Of a DNA stretch of 64,000 nt, positions 54,510 through 58,746 are shown piece after piece (the first letter of the stretch is position 1; each line of letters begins with the position of its first letter). The notes under the pieces were generated by a model, which made no database searches, was not told the DNA's origin, and worked only from the letters and a program-made list of their open reading frames with translations. Made by a program: the position numbers and the translations under genes. The DNA is from Bacillota bacterium (GTDB taxonomy: Bacteria > Bacillota > Clostridia > Caldicoprobacterales > Caldicoprobacteraceae): positions 1,887 through 65,886 of the forward strand of contig JAMNZI010000063.1 in the NCBI GenBank assembly GCA_023622385.1. The letters are read 5' to 3'.

Positions 54510-55760
54510 TTATCGCTTCAGATTGACCAGCTCCTGTAGCATCTCATCCGCTACAGTGATGATCCTCGAGTTGGCCTGAAATCCCCTCTGGGCAACGATC
54601 ATGTCGGTAAATTCCTTGGCAAGGTCCACGTTGGACATCTCCAGCGCCCCCGCAATGATGGTACCCCTGCCACCTACGCCTGCTCTTCCATATAGTGGAT
54701 ACCCGGAATTGGTGGAGTGCTGGTACAGGTTATTGCCAACCTTATTCAATCCGCCTGGGTTTGTGAAGGTAGCAATGGCCAATACCGCGTCCTCCCTGGA
54801 CTGGCCATTGGTATAGTACCCTATCACGCGGCCTTCGGAATCGATGCTTATGGAATTCAATATTCCGGATATGTATCCGTTAACAGTAGCGTTAACGGTG
54901 GTGGAATTGGCGTATTGGGTAAATTTCGCTGGGTCGAACTTAATACTCAAAGTGATATCATCCGCACCTGTAACACTAGAAACTTGGATGGTAACATTTC
55001 CCTCCGAAGGATTGCTTAGCTTACCTTCTGGGCTAAATACCAGTGAGCCTGAAGCACCAGTTACTCCTACACCAGATGGTGGCTCTATTCTCCACGACCA
55101 CTCATTGTTATCATCTTTTGTAAATATAATGTTTAGCTTGTGCTCGTTACCGAGGGAATCAAACACGGTAAAGCTATACTGTTCTTCCTCATCCACGGCT
55201 AAGCTAGCATCCAGGTTACCTTCAAATTTTATCATATCTGTGGCTTTTGCCGGCATCGATAGATTCAACAGGTTGATAGGTCCAGGCATGCCAGTAGTAT
55301 CCACGTACTGCTCTCCCGTCGTAGGATCAGTGACTAAGGTATTCCACCCCAGTACCTTTAACCCTCCCGGATAAACCAAATCGCCGTTGACGTCTATATC
55401 AAAGTTTCCAGCCCTGGTGTAATACACGTTTTCTCCATCTGAAACCATAAAGAAGCCTTCACCATCTATAGCCAGATCAGTGGCCCTGTCGGTTCTCTGT
55501 ACGCCGGTACTGGTATGGAGCACATCGATGGTACCCACCGATACTCCCAATCCGATTTGCTGCGGGTTTGTGCCTCCCCGGCCTCCCACCTGCGACGGTC
55601 CGGAGGCATTTTTAATGGTCTGGTTCAAGATTTCCTGGAAGGTTACTCGGCTTGATTTAAAGGCAACGGTGTTTACGTTGGCGATATTGTTACCTATGAC
55701 GTCCATCTGGGTCTGATGGACCCTCAAACCCGAAATACCGGAATACAACGACCTCATCAT
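54510..55760 (-). CDS. flgE: Flagellar hook protein FlgE
   Basis: MMRSLYSGISGL, GNNIANVNT, TRAGNF, LEMSNVDLAKEFTDMIVAQRGFQANSR; 416 aa with hook D2 domain. Confidence 0.95.
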   Translation of the reverse strand: MMRSLYSGISGLRVHQTQMDVIGNNIANVNTVAFKSSRVTFQEILNQTIKNASGPSQVGGRGGTNPQQIGLGVSVGTIDVLHTSTGVQRTDRATDLAIDGEGFFMVSDGENVYYTRAGNFDIDVNGDLVYPGGLKVLGWNTLVTDPTTGEQYVDTTGMPGPINLLNLSMPAKATDMIKFEGNLDASLAVDEEEQYSFTVFDSLGNEHKLNIIFTKDDNNEWSWRIEPPSGVGVTGASGSLVFSPEGKLSNPSEGNVTIQVSSVTGADDITLSIKFDPAKFTQYANSTTVNATVNGYISGILNSISIDSEGRVIGYYTNGQSREDAVLAIATFTNPGGLNKVGNNLYQHSTNSGYPLYGRAGVGGRGTIIAGALEMSNVDLAKEFTDMIVAQRGFQANSRIITVADEMLQELVNLKR

Positions 55761-55768
55761 AAAGCAAC

Positions 55769-55845
55769 AACCTCCTTTGGTTTATCGGCGCAGCCCATTC
55801 CCTCTGTCGTTCAGGAATGATGCAGCCTCCCCAAAGGGGTCCGGC
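55769..55845 (-). ncRNA. Candidate cis-regulatory structured RNA in the flgE leader
   Basis: GCC-GGA-CCCC-UUU-GGGG-A-GGC hairpin, CAUUCC/GGAAUG stem, and a segment (GACCCCUUUGG) complementary to the flgE SD region (CCAAAGGAGGUU). Confidence 0.5.
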
Positions 55846-56258
55846 TACAGCACTACTGCGCCATCGATATTTGTAAAGATGTTCTCCTTTATGCTCTCAC
55901 CATCGACAGCTGTAACGATGGTTTTGGTAGGAACGTTGACTATAAACGCAAGATCGCCCATGAGCACCAACGAATCCCGCACGCCCTTTTCCCTGGCCTT
56001 TTCAATTGCCTGTCCAATCCTGTCCATCTGATCTTGTGACAACCAGATATTCCTCTGCCTCATCCTGGTTTGGGCATGCTTGCTGAACTTGATGGCCTGC
56101 TCCTTCTGTATTGCTTCCTTCAGTATTTCATCAAAACCTATATTGCTTACCCCGTTACTGCCTCTTCTGAGAGAATCAGCTTGTTGGGGGATCCCCGATA
56201 TCCTGCCGGTATAGACGACGCGGTTGTATTCAACTTTGCCGCTGTCCATACTATTCAT
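55845..56258 (-). CDS. Flagellar operon protein, TIGR02530 type
   Basis: IKFSKHAQTRMRQRNI, KGVRDSLVLM, AFIVNVPTKTIVTA, ENIFTNIDGAVVL; between flgD and flgE. Confidence 0.88.
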   Translation of the reverse strand: MNSMDSGKVEYNRVVYTGRISGIPQQADSLRRGSNGVSNIGFDEILKEAIQKEQAIKFSKHAQTRMRQRNIWLSQDQMDRIGQAIEKAREKGVRDSLVLMGDLAFIVNVPTKTIVTAVDGESIKENIFTNIDGAVVL

Positions 56259-56673
56259 CCCCTTGTGTATCTATTGTTCCAGAATAGATCTCCTTTACCT
56301 CATCCAGAGCGATATCATATCCGTTGACATGAAGGGTTACTTTTCCATTGACCACTGAAACCCCCTCAACTTTCCCATACACTGGGATAACCCCTGCCGA
56401 ATTCTCTGCCCTCTTCTCGGCATAGACCATCTTGTCTATCAGTCCCATGGCCTTCATCGATGTAAAGTCATTGCTCAAATTTTGCATGAGCTCCAACGTG
56501 CTGAACTGTGCAAGCTGGGCTATAAATTCCCTATCCTCCATCGGGTTTAATGGGTCCTGATACTTCAGCTGCGTTATGAGAAGCTTTAAAAACGCATCCT
56601 TGCCCAGCTCATTGCCAGGCTGTTTCGAATTTTCTGCAGTATACGCCTGATTGTTTACGCCGCTCACATACAT
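56251..56673 (-). CDS. flgD: Flagellar hook capping protein FlgD
   Basis: LGKDAFLKLLITQLKYQDPLNPMEDREFIAQLAQFS. Confidence 0.96.
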   Translation of the reverse strand: MYVSGVNNQAYTAENSKQPGNELGKDAFLKLLITQLKYQDPLNPMEDREFIAQLAQFSTLELMQNLSNDFTSMKAMGLIDKMVYAEKRAENSAGVIPVYGKVEGVSVVNGKVTLHVNGYDIALDEVKEIYSGTIDTQGDE

Positions 56674-58143: not shown

Positions 58144-58746
58144 TTATTGCCCAGCCATTTGCCTGGTCAACTCGGCCGCCTTTTTGGATTCCATCGCTCC
58201 CAATATCTCGGCGCTCCTCTCTGCTGGCATGTGTTTGAGTATCTGAATGACCAGAGAACGGTCTTCCATCTCGGACAAAATGGAGGCGGCTTGCTCTGCT
58301 TCCATATTCTCATAAACCTTAGCAATATCCTTTATACCCTCAAACAGGGCCGAAAGCTTCTGCTGCAATTCATCCACTTCCCTTTCCTTTTGCTCAAGCT
58401 CTTCCTCCCTTTGTTCCAATTGCTGCTGCTTGTCCTCCAGCTGGCCCTTTAAAGCGTTGAGCTGATCCTCATAAACCTTCAGCCTCTTTTTTTCGTCCTC
58501 AATGGCCTTTAGCTGCTGCTGTAACTCGCTACCTTCATCCGATGGCGAATTATCAACCACCTTAGAAGGAAACAGCAACGCCACGGCAGTATCCCTTATA
58601 CCGCCCACATTGAAAAAAAGCGACAACCCTATACCGGTTACGATAAACAGCAATACCACGACGATTATCAGCCGTGCGGCACCCCTGGTGTTGGCCACCA
58701 AGTCACCGCCCGCTTTTCCCCTATCGATCCTGTCATACCTTGCCAT
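58144..58746 (-). CDS. MotE/YlxF-family flagellar protein (TM, coiled coil, MgtE_N-like)
   Basis: TM, coiled coil, IAKVYENMEAEQAASIL...ILKHMPAERSAEILGAM; between fliJ and fliK. Confidence 0.8.
   Translation of the reverse strand: MARYDRIDRGKAGGDLVANTRGAARLIIVVVLLFIVTGIGLSLFFNVGGIRDTAVALLFPSKVVDNSPSDEGSELQQQLKAIEDEKKRLKVYEDQLNALKGQLEDKQQQLEQREEELEQKEREVDELQQKLSALFEGIKDIAKVYENMEAEQAASILSEMEDRSLVIQILKHMPAERSAEILGAMESKKAAELTRQMAGQ

What the first reader, a model, noticed from the sequence alone, without database searches (positions are those of the whole stretch)
55845..56258. Uncharacterised flagellar-operon protein looks like a RelE/DUF4258 (BECR)-fold RNA-binding protein sitting on the flgE leader RNA
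Seen: residues ~55-125 read IKFSKHAQTRMRQRNIWLS...AIEKA...SLVLM..LAFIVNVPTKTIVTAV. This matches the pattern I associate with DUF4258/RelE-like BECR domains (F[ST]xHAxxRMxxRxI near the N-terminus; a hydrophobic hairpin ending IVTA). The first ~50 aa are low-complexity and end in GFDEILKEAI, reminiscent of the N-termini of flagellar export substrates. Established: BECR folds bind or cut RNA; TIGR02530-type genes sit between flgD and flgE with no assigned function. Inference: the protein may bind or process the adjacent structured leader and may itself be exported, giving an FlgM-like assembly checkpoint that acts on hook mRNA. With the leader and the 3' hairpin, this is the best candidate for an undescribed system here.
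Basis: inference. Interest (0 to 1): 0.68.

Follow-up and report, generated by a model that had tools for sequence, protein, structure and literature searches.

The report
Flagellar hook-operon protein fused to RNA switch
A small, uncharacterised protein always encoded between the flagellar hook-cap and hook genes carries a toxin-like (DUF4258/RelE-type) signature and an export-signal-like N-terminus, and its last codons form part of a conserved, previously undescribed three-helix RNA just upstream of the hook gene's ribosome-binding site, which makes control of hook-protein synthesis in Clostridia directly testable.

Summary
The ORF is real (55845-56258, minus strand; the likely start is Met4 at 56249). 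It is a clear TIGR02530/PF12611 (formerly DUF3766) member lying between flgD and flgE.

IKFSKHAxxRMxxRNI matches the DUF4258 signature (profile-profile probability 94-95%, P about 1e-7), but over only 19-21 columns. The fold claim is not established:
- Foldseek finds nothing significant in the PDB.
- Only borderline viral matches appear (RegB-like, DUF4258).
- The domain is acidic, unlike RelE-type RNases.
- There is no antitoxin gene.

The N-terminus is predicted disordered and ends in an invariant F-x-x-[IV]-L. This resembles the gate-recognition motif of hook-stage export substrates in sequence and position.

The strongest new result concerns RNA. The X-flgE spacer carries a covarying two-hairpin element, present in 80/80 genomes. 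A third helix is formed by the X codons for D-G-A-V, and the X stop codon lies inside hairpin 1. It matches no Rfam family. Gene and RNA co-occur almost perfectly, but they physically overlap, so co-occurrence does not show that the protein binds the RNA.

Best reading: a translational coupling and feedback module for hook protein. Protein-RNA binding, cleavage and export are all untested.

The parts
55845..56258 (-). Gene X: TIGR02530/PF12611 family ORF, 137 aa as the longest ORF. The probable start is Met4 at 56249, giving 134 aa.
   Evidence: The GGGG Shine-Dalgarno 9 nt before the second ATG was read.
56148..56258 (-). Residues 1-37: a variable, predicted-disordered N-terminal region with small non-polar residues near the N-terminus.
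   Evidence: pLDDT is below 50. The alignment is poorly conserved here. In 83% of 173 unique homologues there are at least 2 A/V/I/L/M residues in positions 2-10.
56121..56135 (-). F42-D-E-I-L46: an invariant Phe in an F-x-x-[IV]-L motif that resembles the gate-recognition motif (GRM) of early flagellar export substrates.
   Evidence: F42 is invariant. The motif occurs in 140/143 homologues, with Phe at median residue 36. For comparison, window FlgE has F41QEIL45 and FlgD has F28LKLL32. The Salmonella FlgD GRM is 36-FLTLL-40 (PMC8983047) and the FlgE GRM is residues 39-43 (PMC10936197).
56046..56096 (-). Residues 55-71, IKFSKHAQTRMRQRNIW: the DUF4258-type strand-helix signature (H61, R65, R69 invariant).
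55848..56096 (-). Residues 55-137: an alpha/beta core domain. Elements are strand 57-58, helices 60-68 and 75-90, strands 95-100, 103-108 and 113-119, and strand 133-136.
   Evidence: AlphaFold2 model of residues 40-137, mean pLDDT 86 and pTM 0.72. Weak match to phrog_5083 over residues 54-123.
55851..55922 (-). Residues 113-136: the PF12611 region, ending in the near-invariant N-[VI]-F-T-N-I-D-G-A-V-I-x-stop.
   Evidence: All synonymous codons are used at these positions across 173 unique homologues, so selection acts on the peptide.
55855..55862 (-). P0, 5' strand (GGCGCAGU): this is within the codons for G133-A134-V135 of X.
   Evidence: Minimum-free-energy fold. Native duplex energy is -11.3 against -8.7 +/- 0.19 kcal/mol for permuted partners. 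Synonymous third positions covary with their partner. The contiguous-helix test gave 0/200 permutations as good as native.
55821..55849 (-). P1 hairpin, (U)GUAGCC-GGA-CCCC-UUU-GGGG-A-GGCUGCA. Its 5' arm contains the X stop codon UAG (55845-55847). It has a conserved GGA / A internal loop, and its 3' arm is a Shine-Dalgarno-like GGAGGC.
55795..55820 (-). P2 hairpin: a stem of variable sequence that closes a conserved loop, Y-GAMYGAYNGA-N (here U-GAACGACAGA-G).
   Evidence: All 6 stem pairs show compensatory changes.
55787..55794 (-). P0, 3' strand (GCUGCGCC): it closes the three-way junction 11 nt upstream of the flgE Shine-Dalgarno sequence.
55771..55775 (-). The flgE Shine-Dalgarno GGAGG. The flgE start codon is at 55758-55760.
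54510..55760 (-). flgE, the hook protein. It is the downstream gene whose leader is the RNA element.
56251..56673 (-). flgE's upstream neighbour flgD, the hook cap. It overlaps or abuts the start of X.

Best explanation
Gene X and the RNA that overlaps its 3' end form one post-transcriptional module that sets hook-protein (FlgE) synthesis.

Shown:
- X is a TIGR02530 protein, always encoded in the order flgD-X-flgE.
- It has three parts. First, a disordered N-terminus ending in an FxxΦL motif like the FlhB gate-recognition motif of rod/hook subunits. Second, an alpha/beta domain of about 80 aa whose first strand-helix carries the DUF4258 signature H-A-x-x-R-M-x-x-R-x-I. Third, an invariant C-terminal FTNIDGAV.
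- The codons for D-G-A-V, the stop codon and the following ~60 nt fold into a conserved three-way junction (P0/P1/P2). This junction ends about 10 nt before the flgE Shine-Dalgarno sequence.

Inferred:
1. A ribosome finishing X must unzip P0 and the base of P1. Translation of X therefore remodels the junction and governs access to the flgE ribosome-binding site, which is translational coupling.
2. The invariant unpaired nucleotides (the GGA bulge of P1 and the GAnnGAnnGA loop of P2) are a binding site for a trans-acting factor. X is the best candidate, acting through the basic strand-helix-helix half of a divergent, non-toxic BECR-like domain.
3. X docks at or is exported through the flagellar type III gate during rod and hook assembly. 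Its cytoplasmic level would then report the assembly stage and feed back on FlgE translation.

Step 1 is the best supported of the three. Steps 2 and 3 are hypotheses.
For: Family and synteny:
- Family membership is shown.
- The order flgD-X-flgE holds in the window, in L001/L002 and in the 80 genome loci. In two of those 80, flgD went undetected (one is cut by a contig end).
- There are 2378 representatives at the 50% identity level.

DUF4258 signature:
- hhalign gives 94.5% (P 7.8e-8) and 93.9%.
- 70/87 members give the sub-threshold Pfam hit.
- DUF4258 is listed as a BECR family (PMC11980606).
- Some DUF4258 proteins score 22-24.9 bits on Pfam Colicin_E5.
- Viral-library neighbours include a RegB-type site-specific RNA endonuclease (probability 0.87, TMq 0.47) and DUF4258 proteins (probability 0.91, TMq 0.44).

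RNA:
- 15 pairs of P1 and P2 are 94.4% paired, and 13 pairs carry compensatory changes. There are 285 compensatory cells against 88 in shuffles, with 0/500 shuffles as good.
- The covariance model finds exactly one hit per locus in 80/80 loci, always in the X-flgE spacer. It finds one hit in the 64-kb window (60.4 bits).
- P0 is supported.
- The stop codon lies inside P1.
- 112 of the 115 genuine motif instances found in metagenomes (the 112 with X, plus three without X scoring 51-63 bits on the model) have X directly upstream.
- In L142 the full X is replaced by a 21-aa ORF with its own Shine-Dalgarno sequence. This ORF still reads through P0 to a stop inside P1.

Export-like N-terminus: compared with PMC8983047 and PMC10936197.
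Against: - No significant structural match to any solved BECR protein and no PDB sequence match.
- The homology signal is limited to about 20 residues. A forced global alignment reaches only 65% probability.
- The core domain is acidic (median pI 5.7). Its beta-sheet half is net -4, whereas DUF4258 proteins are basic.
- There is no detectable covariation between the X signature and the conserved RNA loop nucleotides beyond overall divergence (partial r 0.09, p 0.41).
- Gene-RNA co-occurrence is confounded by their physical overlap.
- In about 10-15% of loci the motif lies 19-73 nt beyond the stop codon. A terminating ribosome cannot always touch it.
- X lacks the C-terminal export signal defined in FlgE and has no axial-protein domains.
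- The alternative anti-Shine-Dalgarno pairing shows only a small co-evolution signal (-8.39 against -8.14 kcal/mol).
- No transcript data could be found.
Confidence: 0.33

Rival explanations
1. X is simply another hook-stage secreted protein, such as a hook-assembly helper or a minor hook or cap-associated factor. Its alpha/beta domain would have nothing to do with RNA. The three-way-junction RNA would be an independent cis device, either a translational coupler or enhancer or an mRNA-processing and stabilising structure. Its job would be to raise FlgE output (about 120 copies per hook) relative to the upstream genes.
For: - The GRM-like motif lies at the canonical position after a disordered N-terminus.
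- The gene sits in a run of early substrates, fliK-flgD-X-flgE.
- The domain is acidic.
- There is no protein-RNA covariation.
- L142 keeps the RNA and a translated mini-ORF without the X domain.
Against: - The invariant unpaired RNA nucleotides across orders of Clostridia call for a conserved trans-acting partner, which this model leaves unnamed.
- The conserved H-A-x-x-R-x-x-x-R-N-I signature shared with a ribonuclease superfamily would be unexplained.
- X lacks the FlgE-type C-terminal export signal.
Confidence: 0.3
2. The RNA is recognised by something other than X, for example CsrA (GGA motifs), an RNase, ribosomal protein S1 or the 30S subunit, or a small ligand as in a riboswitch. X would be a cytoplasmic factor that acts on proteins, such as an escort for FlgE or FlgD or a modulator of the FlhB gate.
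For: - The RNA has a conserved GGA in a bulge plus a GGAGG Shine-Dalgarno sequence and a Shine-Dalgarno mimic.
- There is a single copy of the RNA per flagellar cluster.
- The acidic domain and the GRM-like motif would fit docking at FlhB without export.
Against: - No Rfam riboswitch or known leader matches.
- The junction nucleotides are not conserved, which is unlike most ligand pockets.
- Nothing ties CsrA or any other factor to this site.
- X shows no similarity to the known flagellar chaperones beyond noise (FlgN E 0.069).
Confidence: 0.17
3. X is a nascent-chain 'monitoring substrate' like SecM, MifM or VemP. The invariant C-terminal FTNIDGAV-x-x-stop would stall the ribosome on P0 and P1. 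The stall would hold the junction open and control flgE initiation. [quoted passage not shown]
For: - The peptide-level invariant motif sits at a fixed two residues from the stop.
- The stop codon lies inside P1, and the P0 5' strand lies in the last codons.
- The N-terminus resembles an export signal.
- The mini-ORF in L142 retains ...VTNINGAVII-stop together with P0, P1 and P2.
Against: - AlphaFold2 places the C-terminal strand confidently in the folded sheet (pLDDT about 93), which suggests a structural role.
- The whole 80-aa domain is conserved, which an arrest peptide would not need.
- In 10-15% of loci the RNA is too far from the stop.
- The downstream gene is a substrate, not export machinery.
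- The motif has no known arrest-motif features.
- The peptide in L142 may be a relic kept by the RNA constraint on P0.
Confidence: 0.07
4. X is an active RelE/DUF4258-type toxin of a toxin-antitoxin or polymorphic-toxin system that happens to sit in the flagellar operon.
For: The DUF4258 signature is present, and DUF4258 is classed with type II toxins.
Against: - No antitoxin gene is present. The neighbours are flgD and flgE in the window, in L001/L002 and in the 80 genome loci; in two of those 80, flgD went undetected (one is cut by a contig end).
- There is no PADLOC hit.
- The pI is acidic.
- The gene shows strict vertical-looking association with flagellar genes across 2378 cluster representatives.
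Confidence: 0.02

Closest known systems
TIGR02530 / Pfam PF12611 'Flagellar_put' (formerly DUF3766) flagellar operon proteins
   Same: Full membership. Scores are above both curated cut-offs, the invariant C-terminal FTNIDGAV is the same, and so is the position between flgD and flgE. Geobacter Gmet_3104 is annotated in the same way next to flgD (PMC4033198).
   Different: Nothing differs. However, the family has no assigned function, and Pfam models only the last 24 residues. The DUF4258-like signature, the GRM-like motif and the overlapping RNA are not part of the family descriptions that I could find.
DUF4258 (PF14076), a BECR-fold family of the RelE/ParE superfamily, with its colicin E5 and RegB relatives
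   Same: - It shares the strand-helix signature [IV]-x-F-[ST]-K-H-A-x-x-R-M-x-x-R-x-I (94-95% hhalign probability).
- The secondary-structure order is co-linear, and there is a VITxY-like last strand (TVITAV) in forced alignments.
- There are weak structural neighbours among viral DUF4258 and RegB-like models.
   Different: - It is below the Pfam threshold, at 15.4 against 25 bits.
- Only about 20 columns align with confidence.
- It has a longer second helix, an extra N-terminal helix and an extra C-terminal strand.
- The pI is acidic rather than basic.
- There is no antitoxin partner.
- No significant match to solved RelE, ParE, YafQ or colicin E5 structures was found.
Early (rod/hook-type) flagellar type III export substrates (FlgD, FlgE, FliK) and their export signals
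   Same: - The N-terminus is disordered with small non-polar residues near the start.
- The F-x-x-[IV]-L motif has its Phe at median residue 36. This compares with FLTLL 36-40 in Salmonella FlgD and residues 39-43 in FlgE.
- The motif is nearly identical to the window's own FlgE F41QEIL45.
- The gene lies among early-substrate genes.
   Different: - It has no Flg_bb_rod or D0 domains.
- It has no FlgE-type C-terminal targeting signal.
- It has a compact globular domain instead of axial coiled-coil ends.
- Export has not been tested.
Export-coupled translational control in flagella (FlgM/sigma-28, FliW-CsrA-flagellin, FlgN-flgM) and SecM/MifM/VemP leader systems
   Same: The logic would be the same: an exported or export-sensing protein sets translation of a neighbouring gene through a structured leader next to the Shine-Dalgarno sequence. 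As in secM-secA, the upstream ORF's 3' end and stop codon overlap the regulatory RNA (own knowledge of those systems).
   Different: - The target here is the hook gene, not flagellin, an anti-sigma factor or export machinery.
- The RNA is a three-way junction with conserved loops.
- None of those proteins has a DUF4258-like domain.
- There is no experimental evidence here for stalling, binding or export.

Membership tests
TIGR02530 / PF12611 (DUF3766) | Score above the curated NCBIfam and Pfam cut-offs | tested here: met
   TIGR02530 scores 118.3 bits against 83.2. PF12611 scores 46 bits against 21.1.
TIGR02530 / PF12611 (DUF3766) | Gene located between flgD and flgE in a flagellar operon | tested here: met
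   This holds in the window, in L001/L002 and in the 80 genome loci. In two of those 80, flgD went undetected (one is cut by a contig end).
DUF4258 (PF14076) | Pfam gathering score (25 bits) over the 71-position domain | tested here: not met
   15.4 bits, E 0.024, covering only profile positions 1-14. The best E among 87 relatives is 0.0012.
DUF4258 (PF14076) | N-terminal strand-helix signature F-[ST]-x-H-A-x-x-R-M-x-x-R-x-I | tested here: met
   hhalign gives 94.5% (P 7.8e-8, 19 columns) and 93.9% (21 columns). H61, R65 and R69 are invariant.
DUF4258 (PF14076) | The rest of the domain is alignable, including the C-terminal V-I-T-x-Y strand | tested here: inconclusive
   It is co-linear only in forced or global alignment, at 65% probability.
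RelE/ParE (BECR-fold) toxins | Three-dimensional similarity to solved members | tested here: not met
   Foldseek against the PDB gives a best E of 0.34-0.59. TM values are 0.43 for YafQ, 0.39 for colicin E5 and 0.33 for ParE. BFVD gives only borderline matches, RegB-like at probability 0.87 and DUF4258 at 0.91, both with E above 0.01.
RelE/ParE (BECR-fold) toxins | Adjacent cognate antitoxin gene | tested here: not met
   Wherever the neighbours could be identified they are flgD and flgE. There is no PADLOC hit.
RelE/ParE (BECR-fold) toxins | Basic protein with an RNA-binding sheet face; ribonuclease activity | tested here: inconclusive
   The core has a median pI of 5.7. The first 40 residues are net +3.4 and the rest net -4.1. 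Activity is not testable here.
Early flagellar type III export substrates | Gate-recognition motif Fxxxφ about 30-45 residues from the N-terminus | tested here: met
   F-[EQD]-[ED]-[IV]-L occurs in 140/143 homologues, with Phe at median residue 36. The definition comes from PMC8983047 and PMC10936197.
Early flagellar type III export substrates | Small non-polar residues near the N-terminus, at least ~24 residues before the GRM | tested here: met
   83% of homologues have at least 2 A/V/I/L/M residues in positions 2-10. In the window protein V9 precedes F42 by 33 residues.
Early flagellar type III export substrates | C-terminal targeting signal of the FlgE type, or axial D0 domains | tested here: not met
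   There is no Flg_bbr_C or Flg_bb_rod hit. X ends before any ELVNMIVAQRNY-like segment.
Early flagellar type III export substrates | FlhA/FlhB-dependent secretion | not testable with these tools
   This needs a secretion assay.
SecM/MifM/VemP-type arrest leader ORFs | Conserved C-terminal peptide next to an RNA structure that controls the downstream Shine-Dalgarno sequence | tested here: inconclusive
   The peptide and the overlap are present. The Shine-Dalgarno sequence itself is not inside P0, P1 or P2, and its mean unpaired probability is 0.56. Stalling is not testable.
Rfam families (any) | Covariance-model match to the leader on the coding strand | tested here: not met
   There are no credible hits. 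The only E below 1 is a plastid intron model on the opposite strand, far below its gathering score.

The most novel reading that the evidence does not exclude
X is a flagellar 'monitoring substrate'. Its invariant C-terminal peptide would pause the ribosome on the P0/P1 part of the three-way junction, and this would switch hook-protein translation. Capture of its N-terminal FlhB-docking signal by an export-competent type III gate would release the pause. This would be a SecM-like sensor for flagellar type III secretion. A milder version is that X is exported while the hook grows, and when retained it binds the junction to shut off flgE.
Probability: 0.07. Interest if true: 0.9.

Novelty: new variant of a known kind. 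Interest (0 to 1): 0.62.

Why it matters
How cells match hook-protein synthesis to the stage of flagellar assembly is understood only in part, and mostly in Salmonella. This locus offers a compact, very widespread module: about 2400 protein clusters at 50% identity, and every one of 80 sampled Clostridia species.

In it, an uncharacterised protein with a ribonuclease-superfamily signature and an export-signal-like N-terminus is physically fused, at the RNA level, to a covarying three-way junction in front of flgE. That gives concrete mutations to test, namely P0 synonymous changes, stop-codon position, F42/L46, and H61/R65/R69.

If the module links export to translation, it would be a new type of flagellar checkpoint. 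Even on the most conservative reading, the RNA element is an undescribed, strongly supported cis-regulatory structure that overlaps a coding sequence. It also explains part of the extreme conservation of the family's C-terminus.

Tried and rejected
- PDB sequence searches with the protein and with the family profile gave only noise: TraM at E 0.5 and CHMP3 at E 0.23.
- Foldseek against the PDB, with both the full and the truncated model, found nothing significant.
- The resemblance of FTNID to the (L)E-x-SNVD motif of rod and hook C-termini was rejected. There is no Flg_bbr_C hit, and the experimentally defined FlgE C-terminal signal lies downstream of that motif and is absent from X.
- The toxin-antitoxin reading was rejected on gene context and the lack of a PADLOC hit.
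- Covariation between the X signature and the conserved RNA loop positions gave no signal beyond overall divergence.
- Co-evolution of an alternative anti-Shine-Dalgarno pairing (P1 5' arm with the flgE Shine-Dalgarno) is feasible at about -8.4 kcal/mol, but it is only 0.26 kcal/mol better than permuted partners. I do not rely on it.
- A search for RNA-seq runs that might show processing sites found only DNA metagenomes, plus one metatranscriptome holding none of the sequence.
- The IMG/VR scan for relatives found none.
- The one hit in the 'phage' collection is a bacterial flagellar operon in an unverified record.
- Five pattern hits without X or flgE score 10-25 bits on the RNA model and look like chance matches.
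- A deeper DUF4258 profile did not lengthen the confident alignment.
- Literature searches for TIGR02530, PF12611 and 'flagellar operon protein' found no functional study.
- One bioRxiv preprint on BECR classification that mentions DUF4258 could not be opened.
Full report
**1. What is there**

The minus strand of 52-60 kb is a flagellar operon segment. The gene order is fliI, fliJ, an MgtE_N-like gene, fliK, flgD, X, flgE, flbD, motA, motB, fliL, fliM.

It scores 118.3 bits on TIGR02530 (cut-off 83.2) over residues 42-137. It scores 46 bits on PF12611 over residues 113-136.

The first ATG directly abuts a GGGG. The second ATG (Met4, at 56249) has that GGGG 9 nt upstream (read). Gene callers give 134 aa (P0001). 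Met4 is therefore the likelier start.

The closest named relatives are Caldicoprobacter proteins at 70-81% identity. The family is large:
- 2583 clusters at 90% identity have E <= 1e-3.
- 2378 representatives at 50% identity have E <= 1e-3.

I found no functional study. Papers list the family only as a 'flagellar operon protein' or DUF3766, for example Gmet_3104 next to flgD in Geobacter.

**2. The protein**

Invariant or near-invariant positions, from an alignment of 87 homologues:
- F42
- K57-F-S-K-H-A62, R65 and R69-N-I71
- K91-G92 and D95-S-L-V-L99
- A104, V107-N108, T113 and T116-A117
- K124, N126 and F128-T-N-I-D-G-A-V135

AlphaFold2 structure:
- Residues 1-37 are predicted disordered, with pLDDT below 50.
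- A model of residues 40-137 has mean pLDDT 86 and pTM 0.72.
- Its elements are helix 42-54, strand 57-58, helices 60-68 and 75-90, strands 95-100, 103-108 and 113-119, a short helix, and strand 133-136.

The DUF4258 resemblance is real but short:
- Pfam gives E 0.024 on residues 58-71, which is below threshold.
- 70 of 87 relatives give the same sub-threshold hit.
- I retrieved genuine PF14076 proteins with a consensus-like query and aligned them.
- hhalign of the two profiles gives 94.5% (P 7.8e-8, 19 columns) and 93.9% (21 columns).
- The matched segments are IKFSKHAxxRxxxRNI and IvFTKHALERMKERGIS.
- Forcing the alignment further gives a co-linear match: lAfvVNV with iirVvy, and TViTAv with VITVY. 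The global probability is only 65%.

DUF4258 is listed among BECR-fold RelE/ParE families with unknown activity (PMC11980606). Some DUF4258 proteins nearly reach the Pfam Colicin_E5 threshold, at 24.9 against 25 bits.

Structure comparison does not confirm the fold:
- The best PDB matches have E 0.34-0.59.
- TM values are at most 0.43 (YafQ 0.43, colicin E5 0.39, ParE 0.33, CdiA-CT NC101 about 0.2).
- In the viral predicted-structure library the neighbours are borderline, with best E 0.011. They include a RegB-type 'site-specific RNA endonuclease' (probability 0.87, TMq 0.47) and two DUF4258 proteins (probabilities 0.91 and 0.30).
- phrog_5083, of unknown function, matches residues 54-123 at E 0.011.

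The core domain is acidic, with median pI 5.7 in 149 homologues. Its strand-helix-helix half is basic (+3.4) and its sheet half is acidic (-4.1). DUF4258 proteins have median pI 9.2.

There is no antitoxin neighbour and no PADLOC hit.

My reading is that X is probably a divergent, non-toxic relative of DUF4258. That is inference, not demonstration.

**3. The N-terminus**

The only conserved feature before residue 55 is F-[EQD]-[ED]-[IV]-L. It is present in 140 of 143 homologues, with Phe at median residue 36 and a range of 27-49. It follows a variable region predicted to be disordered. That region has at least 2 small non-polar residues in positions 2-10 in 83% of sequences.

This is the layout described for early flagellar subunits:
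- an N-terminal hydrophobic signal;
- then the FlhB gate-recognition motif at least ~24 residues later;
- FLTLL 36-40 in Salmonella FlgD (PMC8983047) and residues 39-43 in FlgE (PMC10936197).

The window's own FlgE has F41QEIL45 and its FlgD has F28LKLL32. X has F42DEIL46, or F39-L43 counting from Met4.

X lacks the C-terminal targeting signal mapped in FlgE. Export is therefore plausible but untested. The motif could equally be the hydrophobic face of a helix that packs on a partner.

**4. The RNA**

This is the strongest finding. The 84-nt X-flgE spacer folds better than shuffles, with z -3.06.

In 80 genome loci from different Clostridia species, X is always followed by flgE after a spacer of median ~82 nt. 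In two of those 80 loci flgD upstream of X was not detected, one of them being cut by a contig end.

Every spacer carries the same element:
- **P1** is (U)AGCY-GGA-CC...GG-A-RGCU(A).
- **P2** is a stem of free sequence closing the loop Y-GAMYGAYNGA-N.

Covariation on the alignment:
- 94.4% of cells are paired.
- 13 of 15 pairs show compensatory changes.
- There are 285 compensatory cells against 88 +/- 8 in shuffles, with 0/500 shuffles as good.
- With partners slid by 1-3 columns, pairing falls to 36-53%.

Covariance model R1:
- It finds exactly one hit per locus in 80/80 loci, always in the spacer (32-70 bits).
- It finds a single hit in the 64-kb window (60.4 bits, 55794-55849).
- Rfam has no match.

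A third helix, P0, joins the X codons GAY-GGN-GCN-GUN (D-G-A-V) to the segment just 3' of P2:
- Native duplexes average -11.3 kcal/mol, against -8.7 +/- 0.19 for permuted partners.
- The synonymous third positions covary with their partners. For GGN the counts are A-U 28, U-A 23, C-G 16 and G-C 3. For GCN they are C-G 24, U-A 23, A-U 16 and G-C 12.
- A strict 7/7 contiguous helix occurs in 14.6% of native pairs against 3.9% of permuted pairs, with 0/200 permutations as good.
- P0 is thus real in most loci but not all.

In the window:
- P0 is 55855-55862 paired with 55787-55794.
- The X stop codon (55845-55847) lies in the 5' arm of P1.
- The flgE Shine-Dalgarno sequence (55771-55775) lies 11 nt after P0.

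The C-terminal peptide N-[VI]-F-T-N-I-D-G-A-V-I-x is conserved while all synonymous codons are used. Selection therefore acts on the peptide as well as on the RNA.

**5. Does the RNA occur without the gene?**

A pattern scan of metagenome contigs returned 120 loci:
- 112 have X directly upstream, with a median of 5 nt from the last matched X residue to the motif.
- 2 are cut by contig ends but have flgE downstream.
- 5 have neither X nor flgE. They score 10-25 bits on R1 and look like chance matches.
- One, L142 (51 bits), has flgE downstream but no X.

In L142, X is replaced by a 21-codon ORF, MNDFFTAVVDAVTNINGAVII-stop. This ORF has its own strong Shine-Dalgarno sequence, reads through an intact P0 (GGAGCG/CGCUCC) and stops inside P1.

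So translation through P0 into P1 appears to be kept even when the X domain is lost in cis. A full X may still exist elsewhere in that genome.

In about 10-15% of loci the motif lies 19-73 nt past the stop. Direct contact with the terminating ribosome is therefore not universal.

**6. Mechanism**

*Shown:* the three-way junction exists, it overlaps the last codons and stop codon of X, and it lies next to the flgE ribosome-binding site.

*Inferred, with good support:* ribosomes completing X must melt P0 and the base of P1. Translation of X and of flgE are therefore coupled through RNA structure.

*Inferred, with weaker support:*
- The invariant unpaired nucleotides (the GGA bulge and the GAnnGAnnGA loop) are recognised by a conserved trans factor.
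- X is the obvious candidate, given its linkage and its ribonuclease-superfamily signature.
- Against this stand the acidic domain, the lack of protein-RNA covariation and the physical-overlap confound.

*Inferred, plausible:* X docks at or passes through the type III gate at the hook stage. If so, its level could report the assembly state.

I put about one third on the combined module reading and a similar weight on 'exported helper plus independent RNA coupler'. Lesser weights go to another RNA partner, a SecM-like arrest, and a toxin.

**7. Novelty and verdict**

The protein family is known but uncharacterised. I found none of the following described:
- the link to DUF4258;
- the GRM-like motif;
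- above all, the three-way-junction RNA overlapping the gene.

Its interpretation is partly supported in the signature, the export-like N-terminus and the real, linked leader RNA. It is unproven on the decisive points: fold, RNA binding or cleavage, and export.

Noticed in passing
window 55787-55865 (-): There is a conserved three-way-junction RNA (P0/P1/P2) between X and flgE, with strong covariation and no Rfam match. Its 5' strand is coding sequence of X, and the X stop codon lies in P1.
   Followed up: yes
L142:10080-10240: This metagenome locus has the RNA element and flgE. In place of X it has only a 21-aa ORF (MNDFFTAVVDAVTNINGAVII) with its own Shine-Dalgarno sequence. flgE here is not preceded by flgD and appears to have its own upstream non-coding region.
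   Followed up: partly
window 56249-56258 (-): The longest ORF starts at an ATG that directly abuts GGGG and overlaps the flgD stop. The second ATG (Met4) has normal Shine-Dalgarno spacing, and gene callers use it (134 aa).
   Followed up: partly
L020, L021, L024, L027, L033, L034 (X-flgE spacers of 121-203 nt): In Acetivibrio and some other lineages the spacer is expanded. The RNA motif then lies 48-65 nt or more past the X stop, or is followed by an extra hairpin (L012, L019). The stop-codon overlap is therefore not universal.
   Followed up: no
L203 (MT835480.1 33633-41920): A GenBank record labelled 'UNVERIFIED: Bacteriophage sp.' from human faeces carries a bacterial fliK-flgD-X-RNA-flgE segment (R1 hit of 40.8 bits). 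It is probably a bacterial contig, or a prophage-flanking contig, rather than a phage.
   Followed up: partly
proteins P0330, P0336 (DUF4258 family): Some archaeal DUF4258 proteins score 22-24.9 bits on Pfam Colicin_E5 (cut-off 25) over most of the domain. This is a sequence-level bridge between DUF4258 and the colicin E5 ribonuclease domain.
   Followed up: no
L092:704-746 and L126 (reverse strand of the stored locus): Two soil-metagenome contigs share a nearly identical GC-rich element that matches the search pattern (21-25 bits on R1) but have no flagellar genes nearby. It is probably an unrelated structured RNA or a chance match.
   Followed up: partly
window 58144-58746 (-): A 200-aa coiled-coil protein with an MgtE_N domain sits between fliJ and fliK, in the position of ylxF in Bacillus. 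It is conserved in the Caldicoprobacter relatives L001/L002.
   Followed up: no
PMC12484599 (phage G): The paper reports a TIGR02530-related ORF (gp136) in the cultivated megaphage G. I could not retrieve it, because tblastn of X against the phage collection found no phage G hit at E <= 10.
   Followed up: partly
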